Assembly (NCBI GenBank): GCA_951406725.2
Contig: OX597815.1
Location: 19,902,001 to 19,966,000, forward strand
Direction of reading: 5' to 3'
From: Octopus vulgaris
Taxonomy: Eukaryota
Length of the DNA: 64,000 nt
Under the pieces are notes generated by a model. The model saw nothing but the letters and a program-made list of their open reading frames with translations. It was not told where the DNA came from and searched no databases. Below are positions 21,602 through 44,763 of the stretch, piece by piece. Positions within the stretch are counted from its first letter, which is position 1. Each line of letters starts with the position of its first letter. Both the position numbers and the translations under genes were made by a program.

Positions 21602-21968
21602 TTACTCTTTTACTTGTTTTAGCCATTTGACTGTGGCCATGCTGGAACACCACCTAGTATTTATTCTAGTACTTCTTCTATCGGTCTCTTTTGCCGAACC
21701 GCTAAGTTACAGGGACGTAAGCACACCAACATCGGTTGTCAAGCGATGTTGGGGGGGGGGACAAACATAAACACACACTCACATATATATATACATACAT
21801 ATATACGACGGGCTTCTTTCAGTTTCCGTCTACCAAATCCACTCACAAGGCTTTGGTCGGCCCGAGGCTATAGTAGAAGACACTTGCCCAAGGTGCAACG
21901 TAGAGGGACTGAATCCGGAACCATGTGGTTCGTAAGCAAGCTACTTACCACACAGCCACTCCTACGCC
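21602..21968 (-). mobile_element. CORE-type tRNA-derived SINE (octopus OR-like), internally deleted
   Basis: Reverse complement of 33916-34328; CORE-like ACCTTGGGCAAGT; head GGCGTAGGAGTGGCTGTGTGGTAAG. Confidence 0.9.
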
Positions 21969-22736
21969 TCTTAAGTACCATTTCTAAATAAGCACATCAT
22001 ATTTTCAGTGTTTAGATCATATTACTGAGTGAAACGAACGTCACAATTGTTTGTGTAAAGTTTTTTCAGTTATTTTATGAAACCTAAACTTAAAATAAAC
22101 TAAGCAAGGAAGGCAATGAAGATTAGCACGAGAAAGAAAAGAAGGCAAATAAAACAGCTAATTTAATAAAATTTTAAACTATGATTATTTTATGTATGCA
22201 ATGTTTCTTAATATTACTCATAATGGCAAAAGTATACTTCCAAAATTACATTTCATATGACCGGTAACACTAGGGCGCACATACACACACACACATATAT
22301 ATATATATGAAGATGTGTATGTGCGTATGTATGTACCTATGTATGTATGACGCTTGTACACTAGCTATCGTCATCATTCATATAACATAATTATTCGAGC
22401 AGGTTTATTGTATATATATATATATATGCTCCGCTGATGAAAACTTAGGTTAATCAACGTAACTCATCTTCTGAGCCAGCTTGCATTATTTTAAACTTCC
22501 ATCATTTCCAATTAACACTAAATTACGTTCATGTCCAATGTTGTAACGTAGGCGATATTTCAAAAAGAGAAATTTCTTCAGTGCTACAAATATTTATATT
22601 CTTTTTGCGCCAAAAGAAAAAAAGAGGGAGGAAAATACTTTAATTTTCTGAAAACCATAAGCGGCATCTCTAAACCTATTTTCCTATCATTTATATATAT
22701 AAACATATGTAGATAAATACATATATCTCTTATCCA

Positions 22737-24925: not shown

Positions 24926-25315
24926 CTAGCAGCATCACCCAGCGTTGCTCGGGTTCGTTTCGACCCTTTAAAATTGGAATTTTTTAAAAGTAAAAATCTT
25001 GCATTGTGTAGCTTGTTATTCTCTTTAAGTGAACATTTTTCTGGTTGAAATACACCGAAAAATAGTGACACAGCAGTAAAAAAAATCGTAAAAAATAGGG
25101 ATTTTCATAGAAAAAAAGCACCTTTTTATGTAAATAATTTTAAGTGTTAACATGGTCCGATTTGAATTTTTTCTTCTACGGATGGAAGAGTAAGCCTTCT
25201 TCTATCATAGTCTCAATTTTGGTCAACTTGCGCCGCAGGGTCTCGGAGGAGATAGTGTTAGTTGAAGGCTACCAAACCTGCCATACACAGACAACTTTAG
25301 CTTTATATATAAAGA
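24926..25315 (-). mobile_element. Non-autonomous Helitron, copy 1
   Basis: Minus strand: A|TCTTTATATATAAAG ... subterminal hairpin CCCGAGCAACGCTGGG ... CTAG|T; no TSD; homologous to 32304-32694. Confidence 0.85.
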
Positions 25316-25664
25316 TATATTGACATAATAGAACTTAAATGTATCACCCTTTTCTGAGGTTCTTGAGCGTCTTTACGTAAAGAGTACTTTTTATCGAACT
25401 TACTCTCGTGTTAAAGTACTCAATATAGATATCCTTGGCATTTATGAAGTAGCTACTTCATCTGAATACCACTTCCAGCACAAAACTCGGAGTAGCAACT
25501 AAGTTCGGTTGGATCTCTCCGCATATGATATGCTGAATAGCTTCATATTTGTTTGTACGGCAGGTGTTCTTTAACAGTTAGTGACTGGAGATCAGACAGC
25601 ACTTATAGGTTTTCCAGAATCTTCCAGATAGTAGCATTGATGCGATTGGTATCCGACTTAAACA

Positions 25665-30681: not shown

Positions 30682-32303
30682 ATACAACTCGTTAAAATTA
30701 CTGTTCCGCAATGTTAACTTTCCGTTTTGTAGAGAGAAAAGCAGCCAGACGGAGGAAATATCTTCATTTATATAGAAGATCAAATATAAAATCACAGATG
30801 ACAAAACGAGACACGAACTAGCAATCCAGTGAGAAAAGTATTAAAAATAACCGTTAATAGTTATGGATGTATAAACGTCCTCGGGCAAGCTGCATGGCTC
30901 GAGTACTCTCACTCATGCAAGCATCCGCAAAAATGTGAACATACACACACATGTGAGGTTTGATGCACTCATGATCACAAAGCGAGTTAGTTATTTAGTT
31001 GGTGTGTAGAAGAACAGGGAGGTTAAAAGTAAATTTAAGTCATCCATACCTTAAAGTAAATTAAGTTAACGCTTACTCAAATTTCATTCTCACTGCATTG
31101 TGCAAAAGTACATTTATATGCGTGTAGGCATCTCGAGAGTCGTTGAGAAATTCTATTAATTATCTTCCCGTTAGTCCACAGAATATACAGGGATTCCTTT
31201 GAGCAGAGACGGCATCTCCTGGAAATTATATTGTATGGTTTCGCATACCTTACTACGGACCAATTAATGCTGTACTTCGTTTTATCCTCCTTCAGTCGCC
31301 ATACAAAATCCCAAAGATGTTGAATTCTCGTTCTCTCAGGTTCGTGTCCTTGGCTGCCATTCCTGCGGCAGAGCCCTTCGACCTCAAAGACCCTCTCTGG
31401 GGGGCAAAATATATTTCACAATGTCCGAGAATGCGACAATCAATTTTAGAGTGGTTTTAGTAAGACTTCTCTAGCAAGACAAACCTTAACTCCATGAGCT
31501 AATGCTTTAGAAAGACACATGCTCTTCAGAGGGTAGAGAAATGAATTAACAAAGAGAGGAGTTTTGAATGTTCATACCAGCACGTTTTCTTCCGCTGGCA
31601 GCGTTGTTGATGATACCGTAACTCACTTTAAGTCTATTTCTATTAAATATCTTATTATATCTATGGTCAACGTGAAAATGTTTATATATAAGGTTTAGGA
31701 AAATCCCGATATCATTGAAACGATCATTTGAATTAGATGTAGGTTTATACCATAAAATATTTCATTTCCTATTTTCACGACATTTTTTTTAATGTTAGTA
31801 CATTTGTGTATGTAGTGTATTCTAGCTTGGAAACTACTATTTTTGAATGCCTTTGTAATAATAAGTAGCATGGTTAAATGATTTTCCATCAAAGAATAAG
31901 CTAGATATGCGTTCACTAATATTATTCATTAAATTTTTAGGCATAATTGCAGGATGGTTTTAACGTCTCGTTAGAATTAGTATAGAAGCGATATTTTCCA
32001 GTATCTAAATCTAAAATCATATCTAAGAAATTAACTCTTCCTAAATTCATATCTACTGGGATCTTTAAATATTTTTGATTATGCTAATGAACTCCTTTCA
32101 TTGCTTGACCATTCATAACTCAAAAACTATCGGTTCATCATCACAGTAAATAGGAAAACAGAATTTTTTTAGAAGAGGTACAATCCTCTCAATTCATAAT
32201 CATCATTCCCGTCGTAAAATTGCATGTTCCAAACAATCGTTGGCTAATACAATTAGCCCAAAACAATTAGTGTAAAATAACAGAGCTTTCCTTGCTTGCA
32301 TAA

Positions 32304-32694
32304 TCTCTCTATATATAAAACTGAAGTTGTTTGTGTATGGCAGGTTTGGTACCCTTCAACTAACACTATCTCCTCCGAGACCCTGCGGCGCAAGTTGACC
32401 AAAATTGAGAGTATGATAGAGGAAGGCTTGCTCTTCCATCCGTAGAAGATAAAATTCAAATTGGACCATGTTAACACCTAAAATTATTTACATCAAGAAG
32501 GTGCTTTTTTTCTATGAAAATCCCTATTTTTACGATTTTTTTACTGCTGTGTCGCCATTTTTCGGTGTATTTCAACCAGAAAAATGTTCACTTAAAGAGA
32601 ATAACAAGCTACATAATGCAAAACTTTTACTTTTCAAAAATTCCAATTCTAAAGAGTCGAAACAAACCCGAGCAACGCCAGGCGAAACTGCTAG
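32304..32694 (+). mobile_element. Non-autonomous Helitron, copy 2
   Basis: A|TCTCTCTATATATAAAA ... CCCGAGCAACGCCAGG ... CTAG|T; inverted homolog of 24926-25315. Confidence 0.85.
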
Positions 32695-33865: not shown

Positions 33866-33915
<50 letters not shown>

Positions 33916-33916
<1 letters not shown>

Positions 33917-34328
33917 GCGCAGGAGTGGCTGTGTGGTAAGTAGCTTGCTTACCAACCACATGATTCCGGGTTCAGTCCCACTGCGTGGCACCTTGGGCAA
34001 GTGTCTTCTACTATAGCCTTGGGCCGACCAAAGCCTTGTGAGTGGATTTGGTAGACGGAAACTGAAAGAAGCCCGTCGTATATATGTATATATATGTGTG
34101 TGCGTGTATGTTTGTGTGTCTGTGTTTGTCCCCCTAGCATTGCTTGACAACCGATCCTGGTGTGTTTATTTCCCCGTTATCTAGCGGTTCGGCAAAAGAG
34201 ACTTATAGAATAAGTACTGGGCTTACAAAGAATAAGTCCCGGGGTCGAGATGCTCGATTAAAGGCGGTGCTCCAGCATGGCCGCAGTCAAATGAGTGAAA
34301 CAAGTAAAAGAGTAAAAGAGAGTAAAGA
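33916..34328 (+). mobile_element. Full-length CORE-type tRNA-derived SINE
   Basis: A-box TGGCTGTGTGG, B-box GGTTCAGTCCC, CORE-like ACCTTGGGCAAGTG, internal TA/TG repeat, tail (AGTAAAAG)n. Confidence 0.92.
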
Positions 34329-34621: not shown

Positions 34622-34691
<70 letters not shown>

Positions 34692-34701
34692 CATACATAT
34701 G

Positions 34702-34761
<60 letters not shown>

Positions 34762-34795
34762 TATAATATATATATATAAATATAAATATATATAT

Positions 34796-35426
34796 ATCCT
34801 TCTCTTCTCCACTTTTGCCCGACCCCACCTTGAATACTGCTGTCCACTGTGGTCTCCCTACACAAAACAAAATATTATGAGAATTGAAGCTCCCCAAAGG
34901 TCAATCACAAAAAAGATAGATGGCATGTCAGACCTTGACTACTGGGGTAGACTAGAGAAGCTGAAATTGTATTCACTCCAACGACGCCGTGAACGCTACA
35001 TTATCTGTATGATGTGGAAAATATTCCATCAGCACTGTCCGAATGATGTTGGCATCACCTTCAAAATGCATCCAAGGCTTGGACCACGTGCCATCCGTCC
35101 ACAACAAAAATCTAAATCGCATCACATAACGACAATACGGCACAACTATTTCACCTCAATTGGACCCGCTCTCTTCAACATTACACCAGGACACGTCAAA
35201 AAAGAAACTGACCACACAAAATTCAAGAAGTCTTTGGACAAATTCCTTCAAACAGTACCGGACAAACCACCCACACCCGGATATGTCTCCGCAAACAATA
35301 ACTCTCTGCTCGAATGGGCCTTGGTGCCCAAATCCTGAACTGAAAGACTTCGCCAGGTGGTGCTATTAAGTTAGACATGGCCTGGGCCAATACTGGCCAA
35401 AAACCTTTCTAAGTTATTCTAAGTTA
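34796..35426 (+). mobile_element. 5'-truncated CR1-group LINE 3' end with intact reading frame, inserted in (TA)n
   Basis: [13 protein letters not shown]...YWGRLEKLKLYSLQRRRERY...FKKSLDKFL..PDKP..PGY, stop at 35338; short 3'UTR; tandem tail (TTCTAAGTTA)2. Confidence 0.88.
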
Positions 35427-42763: not shown

Positions 42764-43003
42764 TATATTAGTCAAAGTATATAGTATTATAGATTCATTA
42801 CAGCTGAGCTTACCAAGCGATTTCGCACGGGTTATTGGATAATCGGGCGGTTATCAAATAACCAAGAATCGTGGGATTTTTTCCATACTTGCCGCCTCTG
42901 AAGAGAACGTGTATTAGATACCTACCTGTCCAGTTATTTAATATCCAGTGCGAAACTGATCGGCTGTAATGGATCTCTAATACTGCATAGTTTGATTAAT
43001 ATA
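42764..43003. mobile_element. MITE with ~44-bp imperfect terminal inverted repeats, TA-flanked
   Basis: 42764-42807 versus reverse complement of 42960-43003 match 37/44; inner IR TTTCGCAC/GTGCGAAA. Confidence 0.7.
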
Positions 43004-43120
43004 TTTATGTATTTGTTCCTCAACTGATATTATGTACGTATTTTGTTTAAATGTTCTTGCATGTGATTTTTACGAACAATAATTGTAATGAAGAAATAAG
43101 TGTACATCTTTAATATATCA

Positions 43121-43456
43121 CGGAGATGTACTCGCATAGCAAGTAATTTGATCTGAGATCGTGTGCTGAAACGAAAACAATTGCAGCGTGGAAGGTGTTT
43201 ATAAGCCATTTAAGAAACACACAAAAGCCGTTCGATTCACTTCAACATTTAAGTTTAATTTGTCAAAATATTTTCGTCGCTAAAATCCGCGACCTGTTCA
43301 CTGACAAAGTCCGTGCAGCACGGACTTTGTCAGTGAACAGGTCGCGGATTTTAGCGACGAAAATATTTTGACAAATTAAACTTAAATGTTGAAGTGAATC
43401 GAACGGCTTTTGTGTGTTTCTTAAATGGCTTATAAACACCTTCCACGCTGCAATTG
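43121..43456. mobile_element. Recent Penelope-like insertion with inverted terminal duplication (perfect palindrome 43175-43459) and 12-bp TSD
   Basis: Arms 43175-43316 and 43318-43459 are exact reverse complements; TTTAATATATCA at 43109-43120 and 43457-43468; contains hammerhead motif. Confidence 0.75.
43326..43375 (+). ncRNA. Minimal type I hammerhead ribozyme, G3-C8 variant (mirror copy on minus strand 43259-43308)
   Basis: Stem I TTTGTCA/TGACAAA, core GTGAACA+G, stem II GTCGC/GCGAC, GAAA, palindromic AATATT stem III, predicted cut after 43368. Confidence 0.7.
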
Positions 43457-43530
43457 TTTAATATATCATTTTTATTTTAATATTTTTTTAAATTGTGTAA
43501 TATATGTGGAAATCCAGTAAGACATAGAAA

Positions 43531-43559
43531 ACTAATATCTCTTTTTTTTTCTTTTCCAG
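43531..43559 (+). promoter_or_regulatory. Branch point, polypyrimidine tract and 3' splice site of the innexin coding exon
   Basis: ACTAAT (43531-43536), CTCTTTTTTTTTCTTTTCCAG|G; in-frame TAG at 43525 upstream and no ATG. Confidence 0.9.
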
Positions 43560-44763
43560 GCTGGACAGTGTGTTGGGAAGTTTTGCAACTTATGCTCGCT
43601 TGAAAGGGCGCTACGACGATGACTGGATCGACCGGTTAAATCACCTTTACACGACAATAATATTTATTATTTTCACAATTGTTGTGAGCACCAAGCAGTA
43701 TGTTGGGGAACCGATTCACTGCTGGTGTCCTGCACAGTTTACTTCCGGACACAGGGATTATGCCAATAACGTGTGTTGGATATCAAACACGTACTACGTT
43801 CCTTTCGAGGAGCGAATACCTTTGCACCGGGAGGGAAAACAGCAAAAGGAGATCGGATATTATCAATGGGTTCCCATGATCCTTCTCTTCCAAGCCTTGT
43901 TATTTAAAGTTCCTTGTATATTGTGGAGGATCCTTGGTGCTTCCGGAGGCGTAAACCTGGATAAGATTGTTACGTTAGCAGCCGACACCCAATTTGTGGC
44001 TCCTGAAGATCGAGAGAGAACTATCAAACATATAGTCCGATATATGGACCGCTGGCTTGAAAACGCCAGGGAATATCGATCGGGCTGCCTCATACGAATG
44101 CGCCAGACTCTATCGAAATACTGTTGCATTGTGTGGGGGAAACGCTATGGAAATTACCTCTTTATTATCTACATGGTTATCAAGATTTTTTACATGGGAA
44201 ATGCTGTAGGCCAGCTTTTCATTTTGAATGAATTTTTAGGCACAAACTATAATCTGTACGGATTTGAAGTCCTGAGTCACTTAGCCAATGGAGATGACTG
44301 GACGGAGTCTCCTAGATTCCCACGTGTGACGATGTGTGACTTTGAAATTCGCCAGATGCAAAATGTTCATAAATACACTGTACAGTGTGTGCTACCCATC
44401 AACCTATTCAATGAGAAGATTTTTATTTTCATTTGGTTCTGGTTAGTGTTTGTTTCAACCTTTAGTGCCGGCAATTTTCTGATATGGTTTTATGCAATGG
44501 TATTCCGCCAACACCGTATTAGATATCTGAAAAAGTTCCTGAGAGTGAACGAATGTTACAAGACAGAACTGGATAAAAAAATGGCGGTGAAATTCGCGGA
44601 TCAATACTTAAGGCATGATGGGATATTTGTTTTGAGACTTGTAGGCAAAAACGCCAATGACGTGCTGGTATCCGAGCTTGTTCTTCAACTGTGGAACCAT
44701 TACCGGAACAAGCCACTTTTTCGGCACGCCAACCCCATTAGCGACGACAACAGTAACGTCTGA
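43560..44763 (+). CDS. inx: Innexin (invertebrate gap-junction protein, unc-9-like); main coding exon, start supplied by an upstream exon
   Basis: 400 open codons from 43561 (LDSVLGS...); DDDWIDRLNH N-terminal motif, GEPIHCWCP, CWISNTY, signature YYQWV, FPRVTMCDF, QCVLPINLFNEKIF; four hydrophobic TM segments. Confidence 0.97.

What the first reader, a model, noticed from the sequence alone, without database searches (positions are those of the whole stretch)
43109..43468. Perfect 285-bp palindrome, TSD-flanked, 100 nt upstream of the innexin splice acceptor
Seen: 142-bp arms with zero mismatches and a 1-nt spacer (centre 43317), a 54-nt unpaired tail (43121-43174), a 12-bp TSD, and an 8-bp inverted match (GTACATCT/AGATGTAC) across the left TSD. 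Known: Penelope-like insertions often have an inverted 5' terminal duplication plus a tail; long perfect dsRNA is a prime ADAR/Dicer substrate; spacerless palindromes extrude cruciforms and are unstable. Inference: a very young insertion creating a 142-bp hairpin in innexin pre-mRNA ~70 nt before the branch point, possibly inducing editing or altering splicing of the coding exon.
Basis: partly seen in the sequence, partly recalled or inferred. Interest (0 to 1): 0.75.

Follow-up and report, generated by a model that had tools for sequence, protein, structure and literature searches.

The report
Mirror-image Penelope retrotransposon stub, innexin intron
This perfect DNA palindrome in an innexin intron is one of hundreds of similar mirror-image stubs of a young Penelope-like jumping gene, likely made by copying the start of the element's RNA onto both ends of a DNA cut; the layout is known, and no effect on the innexin gene is shown.

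Summary
The palindrome (142+1+142 bp), 54-nt tail and 12-bp duplication are exact. It is not unique: 712 loci share its head-to-head core. The unit is the pseudo-LTR (pLTR) of a young RT + GIY-YIG Penelope-like element: it lies downstream of the ORF in 30 of 30 loci and runs into the ORF start in tandem copies. Long arm plus tail, short arm, a 12-13 bp TSD and (TA)n targets match published PLE anatomy. Each arm holds a hammerhead-like motif with a G3-C8 core. Perfect arms are common (31 of 57). The insertion is not private: contigs of five samples from four other studies, three organism labels, carry its junctions with no empty allele seen, and one probable-RNA contig is spliced at the expected acceptor. 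Editing of the hairpin is plausible but untested. Most useful detail: short copies begin at one site, often with an extra G that likely copies the RNA cap. The scan found this kind of element before on other DNA. Verdict: new member of a known kind; low interest.

The parts
43109..43120 (.). left target-site duplication (12 bp)
   Evidence: informative non-TA family sites give 12-13 bp (L004, L011, L016, L077)
43121..43317 (-). long arm: sense pLTR of the Penelope-like element including the tail; carries the first 29 codons of the element's ORF (ATG at 43209-43207)
   Evidence: 97-100% match to the unit downstream of the RT-EN ORF in 30 of 30 loci; unit runs into the ORF in L146/L147
43121..43174 (-). 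54-nt unpaired tail: sequence between the two family 3' ends (about 143 and about 201)
   Evidence: tail as in PMC8557442 and PMC11167929
43259..43308 (-). type I hammerhead-like motif (G3-C8 core), minus-strand copy
   Evidence: own descriptor; activity untested
43314..43320 (.). head-to-head junction with 1-nt spacer (A at 43317); TGC microhomology between the two 5' ends
   Evidence: same junction type in about 14 of the first 50 loci listed (counted by eye), in several subfamily backgrounds
43318..43459 (+). short arm: inverted pLTR copy ending at the short family 3' end; ORF ATG at 43425-43427
43326..43375 (+). type I hammerhead-like motif: helix I 7 bp, core G3...C8, one bulged base, helix II 5 bp, GAA, palindromic AATATT, predicted cut after 43368
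   Evidence: motif family-wide (5123 matches); not an Rfam hit; activity untested
43457..43468 (.). right target-site duplication (12 bp; first 3 nt shared with the arm)
43102..43109 (.). 8-bp flank match, inverted to 43124-43131; private to this copy, likely chance
   Evidence: 1 of 55 palindromes
43532..43559 (+). host branch-like CTAAT, pyrimidine tract and acceptor AG
   Evidence: contig X10 joined here to 96 nt of other sequence
43560..44763 (+). innexin coding exon (host gene)
   Evidence: Pfam PF00876 E 4.4e-105; ORF list

Best explanation
The palindrome is two head-to-head copies of the pLTR of a young Penelope-like retrotransposon, flanked by a 12-bp duplication, and it was likely made in one event in which the element's enzyme cut both target strands and copied the 5' end of the element's RNA onto each cut end. 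Shown: the identity of the unit, the parent RT + GIY-YIG ORF, two preferred 3' ends, one preferred 5' start, a frequent extra G at that start, and two arms from one source sequence. Inferred: an RNA starting (likely capped) at the start of the pLTR is bound near its ORF start. One DNA end primes at the tail site (about +201) and the other at the short site (about +143). Both cDNAs run to the RNA 5' end and join through a TGC microhomology. Gap filling across a 12-nt stagger gives the TSD. In innexin pre-mRNA the stub would form a 142-bp hairpin that is a likely ADAR substrate and would hide its own hammerhead, but it is most likely a near-neutral intronic passenger. Odds: PLE stub 0.95; double priming from a capped RNA about 0.55; near-neutral about 0.8.
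For: Family: 1278 candidates, 40 scored at 95-100%; 797 exact 32-mer matches; 712 head-to-head cores. Parent: 30 of 30 loci picked by the RT-EN protein have the unit about 1.1 kb downstream on the same strand. [quoted passage not shown] Ends: of 112 arms in 80 loci taken in genome order, 42 end at 138-145 and 65 at 197-201; 82 start within -10 to +2. 23 of 27 palindromes pair a long with a short end. The short end is also used by single-arm and ORF-adjacent direct copies, so it behaves as a priming site. Extra G before AGATG: 32 of 42 distinct non-templated contexts; 206 genome-wide, against C 8 and A 4 among the first 100 of 362 non-G matches. Four adjacent pairs in the listing carry it on both arms. 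Arms agree at two family SNPs in 54 of 57 and 57 of 57. 48 of 55 tail ends abut (TA)5+. Papers: PMC3846280 (passages), PMC8557442 (passages), PMC11167929 (parts 1-2 of 4), PMC4209133 (parts 1-2 of 4).
Against: SNP agreement between arms fits fold-back self-copying or later arm-to-arm conversion just as well; 9 non-majority letters are shared by both arms, against 50 on one arm. The 5' start coincides with a 3' splice-site-like sequence in the parent element, so the extra G could come from a tiny spliced exon or a template switch. The window copy's own centre lacks the AGATG start, so the G evidence comes from other copies. Pfam found no RT domain in the ORF; RT motifs were read by eye. Rfam found no hammerhead. 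The 80-locus set was chosen by an exact 32-mer and favours young copies. No RNA reads were available for cap, editing or cleavage.
Confidence: 0.8

Rival explanations
1. Same element, but the mirror arm was made by self-priming: one cDNA (or an antisense RNA) folded back and copied itself, as proposed for Adineta Penelope.
For: Arms almost always share family variants. The commonest centre uses a self-complementary TGCA-based microhomology. PMC3846280 argues for self-priming from palindromes at inverted junctions (passage).
Against: The short arm stops at a site that is also the 3' end of direct and single-arm copies. Some palindromes keep the extra-G start on both arms. Three of 57 palindromes differ between arms at family SNP 78, more than the roughly 0.2-0.4 expected from the one-arm mutation rate (my arithmetic).
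Confidence: 0.3
2. The palindrome moves as a unit, as a MITE-like or Crypton-like non-autonomous DNA element.
For: Short, non-coding, palindromic, high copy number; the same 1-nt-spacer centre recurs.
Against: The unit is the end of an RT-EN ORF element. Single arms and kilobase-long inverted copies exist. Centres differ from copy to copy, and the common centre recurs in different subfamily backgrounds. The direct repeats differ per site, so they are TSDs and not element ends.
Confidence: 0.03
3. The stub has become a regulatory element: the hairpin, edited or not, changes splicing or level of the innexin RNA.
For: Very stable hairpin 100 nt from the acceptor. Most copies sit in TA arrays, this one does not. 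It is retained unchanged across three organism labels. Palindromic repeats are heavily edited in frog, and octopus has a strong hyper-editing signal (PMC5625713, passages).
Against: A spliced contig at the expected acceptor exists. Branch point and pyrimidine tract are outside the hairpin. Zero divergence is shared by 64 of 110 arms, so it is no sign of selection. There are hundreds of equivalent hairpins.
Confidence: 0.12
4. Fold-back chimera or assembly artefact.
For: No listed contig spans the whole element; polishing could have made the arms identical.
Against: Independent short-read contigs show both junctions in opposite element orientation. The TSD and the long/short asymmetry follow the family rule.
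Confidence: 0.03

Closest known systems
EN+ Penelope-like insertions with inverted pLTR, tail and TSD (Pen2a_Av and others, PMC3846280; overview PMC8557442)
   Same: Head-to-head inverted pLTR, optional tail on one arm, pLTR holding the first ORF codons, TSD near 10 bp, microsatellite target, C-terminal GIY-YIG.
   Different: Here the whole insertion is only two pLTRs. The tail is 54-58 nt (30-40 reported), the TSD 12-13 bp (8-10 reported in Adineta), and hundreds of such stubs exist.
Poseidon element PAc of Anolis (PMC11167929)
   Same: Two internal reverse-transcription start sites shortly after the ORF start define the tail; AT-rich target; both strands cut and extended in vitro; hammerhead in the pLTR.
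   Different: This ORF has a CX3CXXC linker (Neptune/Nematis type, absent in Poseidon). The ORF starts about 50 nt after the hammerhead, not inside it. The core is naturally G3-C8, the double mutant that only partly rescues PAc cleavage.
Minimal type I hammerheads of metazoan PLE pLTRs (PMC4209133)
   Same: Bulged base between positions 9 and 10.1, G10.1-C11.1 pair, short palindromic helix III, motifs on opposite strands close together.
   Different: G3-C8 core (that paper's text reports U3-A8 as variant); helix II 5 bp and helix I 7 bp; no cleavage test here.
Metazoan non-LTR retrozymes (PMC7229834, search listing only; bioRxiv 10.64898/2026.07.22.740005, part 1 of 5)
   Same: Short non-coding hammerhead-bearing derivative of a PLE pLTR.
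   Different: Not a tandem array of hammerhead monomers; the stub is 97-100% identical to the end of a coding element, so it is not a separate non-autonomous lineage.

Membership tests
EN+ Penelope-like element | Single ORF with RT and GIY-YIG endonuclease | tested here: met
   1025-aa open frame; GIY-YIG PF01541 E 1.8e-5 over cut-off. RT motifs read by eye; Pfam RVT_1 not hit, homologues labelled reverse transcriptase. Met by the parent element, not by the stub.
EN+ Penelope-like element | pLTR from partial tandem: same unit upstream and downstream of the ORF | tested here: met
   Downstream in 30 of 30; upstream and continuous with the ORF in L146, L147; both in L135/L136.
EN+ Penelope-like element | Inverted 5' copy and optional tail | tested here: met
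   27 of 80 loci flagged head-to-head (one, L188, is a mis-pairing with a microsatellite hit); 23 long+short.
EN+ Penelope-like element | Variable target-site duplication | tested here: met
   12-13 bp at five non-TA sites including this one; most of the 55 examined lie in TA arrays and are uninformative.
EN+ Penelope-like element | Hammerhead motif in pLTR | tested here: inconclusive
   Own descriptor finds it only in the two arms in the whole window; helix fold z -3.3; subfamily changes cluster in loop 2 (but the search pattern fixed core and helix II); no Rfam hit; no compensatory pair change found.
EN+ Penelope-like element | Self-cleavage of the hammerhead | not testable with these tools
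   Needs an in vitro assay.
Neptune/Nematis clades | C-terminal EN with CX2-5CxxC linker and CCHH motif | tested here: met
   CX3CXXC linker, two Cys between the GIY- and YIG-like motifs and two downstream His, read; definitions from PMC8557442 passages.
Neptune/Nematis clades | RT phylogeny with reference clades | not tested
Non-LTR retrozyme | Tandem hammerhead monomers independent of a coding element | tested here: not met
   Copies are single arms, inverted pairs or ends of coding elements.
MITE / Crypton non-autonomous DNA element | Fixed ends and fixed internal sequence, no RT parent | tested here: not met
   Variable centres, two 3' ends, RT-EN parent.

The most novel reading that the evidence does not exclude
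These stubs are not random 5' truncations but complete copies of the capped 5' end of the element's mRNA, made by internal priming at the first pLTR on both strands of one cut. The extra G marks the cap, and hundreds of copies give an in vivo record that Penelope-like enzymes prime twice on a sense, capped RNA. That would argue against the antisense self-priming model. The family also carries a natural G3-C8 hammerhead core in over 5000 matches.
Probability: 0.45. Interest if true: 0.45.

Novelty: new member of a known kind. Interest (0 to 1): 0.25.

Why it matters
As a single locus it matters little: a common retrotransposon footprint in an intron. The family is a good test bed for an open question, how Penelope-like elements build their inverted arms, because it is young, has near-identical coding copies, two sharp 3' ends and one sharp 5' start. 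At least 712 self-folding hairpins are also a candidate source of non-coding A-to-I editing in an animal known for heavy editing.

Tried and rejected
Crypton/MITE reading: first idea; one paper search gave nothing useful and the RT-EN parent rejected it. Rfam: only generic hairpin hits below gathering scores, no hammerhead. Family PF26215 is not in the library. GIY-YIG family search: the top 30 loci belong to other Penelope families; only L059 held part of the unit. 'Flip-flop' centres (L020 against L026): explained by which arm kept the 5' start. Two unrelated RNA templates as the rule: rejected by SNP agreement. Extra G copied from the tail's GGAGATG: the base before it is G in only 1 of 32. 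Ancestral C3-G8 core: none among the first 100 of 131 non-G3 matches listed. Sister family P0002: my descriptor found no hammerhead within 1.5 kb of the matched protein part in 30 of 30 loci; not evidence of absence. Sequencing runs: no RNA holder listed; X9 and X10 are guessed RNA and are contigs, so editing could not be examined. A>G rows also appear in DNA runs and come from other copies. Summed depth was not used as copy number. 8 of 24 listed runs were laid; the joint tables were cut (188 and 35 rows not shown). Paper searches for a cap-derived G in Penelope and for natural G3-C8 hammerheads listed no paper whose title or abstract start reports either. I read none of those hits beyond the listing, except the two PLE papers cited, and no supplements were read, so both may be in print. 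The upstream innexin exon was not located.

Full report
Observation. The downstream exon is an innexin, starting at 43560, 100 nt after the arm. The host is likely an octopus: the closest named relative of the element's protein is annotated from Octopus vulgaris and matches G000 at 100%.

It is a dispersed family. A search of the window's genome gave 1278 candidates, with 40 scored at 95-100% identity. An exact 32-mer occurs 797 times, the hammerhead-like core 5123 times including older subfamilies, and the head-to-head centre at 712 loci. The flanking direct repeats differ from site to site. They are 12-13 bp where readable (L001, L004, L011, L016, L077), and 48 of 55 tail ends abut a TA array. 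So they are true target-site duplications, and this copy is unusual only in lying outside a TA array.

Parent element. Some copies share upstream sequence leading to an ORF. All 30 loci then picked by that protein have the unit about 1.1 kb downstream on the same strand. [quoted passage not shown] That is the Neptune/Nematis arrangement in PMC8557442 (passages); no tree was built. In L146 and L147 the unit runs directly into the ORF's 5' end, with the start codon inside the unit, so the unit is the pLTR. Many protein copies are 97-99% identical, so the family is young.

Anatomy of the stubs. I examined 80 loci taken in genome order from the exact-match list (82 fetched, 2 overlapping duplicates dropped). 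Of their 112 arms, 42 end at positions 138-145 and 65 at 197-201; 82 start within -10 to +2 of one site. 27 loci were flagged head to head, one wrongly; 23 pair a long with a short end. This matches the two reverse-transcription start sites that define the tail in the Anolis element, whose protein cuts and extends both strands (PMC11167929, parts 1-2 read). It also matches the inverted pLTR, tail and TSD in Adineta (PMC3846280, passages).

How the arms relate. In 57 palindromes (20 from the genome-order set, 37 from the best hits), arms agree at two family SNPs in 54 and 57 cases. 31 have no substitution between arms over positions 12-135 (indels not counted). 50 differences are on one arm and 9 are shared. 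So both arms come from one source sequence, and perfection is ordinary. The window's centre joins the two 5' ends through a TGC overlap; this junction recurs in about 14 of the first 50 loci listed, in several subfamily backgrounds (counted by eye), so it forms repeatedly.

The 5' start. In the parent element a T precedes AGATG. In short copies a G precedes it in 32 of 42 distinct contexts, with a variable base before the G. Genome-wide there are 206 G matches, against 8 C and 4 A among the first 100 of 362 others. Copying of the m7G cap as an extra G is known for other reverse transcriptases (recalled, from no call). I infer that the stubs copy the capped 5' end of the element's RNA after priming inside the first pLTR. 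A rival is a very short spliced exon, since the site also looks like a branch point plus 3' splice site. Double priming is favoured over fold-back because the short end is also used by direct copies and because some palindromes keep the G on both arms. It is not proven.

Hammerhead. Each arm holds a type I motif with the features of PLE hammerheads in PMC4209133 (parts 1-2 read): bulged base, G10.1-C11.1 pair, palindromic helix III. The core is G3-C8. My descriptor finds it only in the two arms in the whole window; Rfam does not. In a transcript of either strand the antisense arm is made first, so the long hairpin would likely hide the motif (inference).

Age and host effect. Unique-flank contigs run 22-29 nt into the element on the left and start 20-23 nt inside it on the right in X1 (possible source), X2, X4 and X6. 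X5 shows the right junction and X8 the left. An empty allele would be expected to break these contigs at the TSD (inference). These runs carry three organism labels, and X4 and X6 differ from the window at 9 of about 370 flank bases, mostly in one cluster. The insertion is therefore shared, probably fixed in this group, although the copy has 0 differences from the family majority (family mean 0.5-0.6%). Contig X10, guessed RNA, joins 96 nt of other sequence to the exon at the expected acceptor. The predicted hairpin leaves the branch point and pyrimidine tract outside. Editing is plausible from PMC5625713 (passages) but could not be examined. The 8-bp flank match occurs in 1 of 55 copies and is likely chance.

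Comparison and verdict. It is a member of the endonuclease-positive Penelope-like elements by ORF, pLTR, inverted copy, tail and TSD; clade and ribozyme activity are untested. Recently active Penelope families are already reported in O. vulgaris (PMC13282606, passages). Earlier notes of this scan describe the same architecture in this and other genomes, including double priming and RNA-start marks. I reached the PLE identity, the end rules and the cap idea before those look-ups; I had weighed both priming models, and the notes agree with double priming. New member of a known kind; interest 0.25.

Noticed in passing
G000, loci L225-L254: A sister young Penelope-like family (P0002, 57% identical to this one) has many copies with open frames of about 1310 aa at 99% identity; no hammerhead found nearby by my descriptor.
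   Followed up: partly
G000, L037, L042 and others: Another young Penelope-type family with many 781-aa RT + GIY-YIG open frames.
   Followed up: no
L005/L022 (G000:C7:5204561-5204966): Fully symmetric palindrome with the tail on both arms; its arms differ at family SNP 78.
   Followed up: partly
L133:1980-2970 (minus strand): The element's 3' region of about 1 kb holds (TACA)n arrays and ends in a branch-point and 3' splice-site-like sequence exactly at the pLTR start.
   Followed up: partly
L272, L273: Much older relatives keep helix II and the C8 base but have diverged elsewhere, so the unusual core is old.
   Followed up: partly
window 34673-35338 (+): 221-aa frame that looks like the C-terminal end of a LINE reverse transcriptase (recalled motif); no Pfam hit.
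   Followed up: partly
window 25079-25318 / 32303-32542 and 21761-21969 / 33915-34123: Two pairs of inverted dispersed repeats (88% and 91%), 7 and 12 kb apart; possible further dsRNA if they lie in one transcript.
   Followed up: no
window 42805-42846: Cluster of differences in runs X4 and X6 against the window, upstream of the insertion.
   Followed up: no
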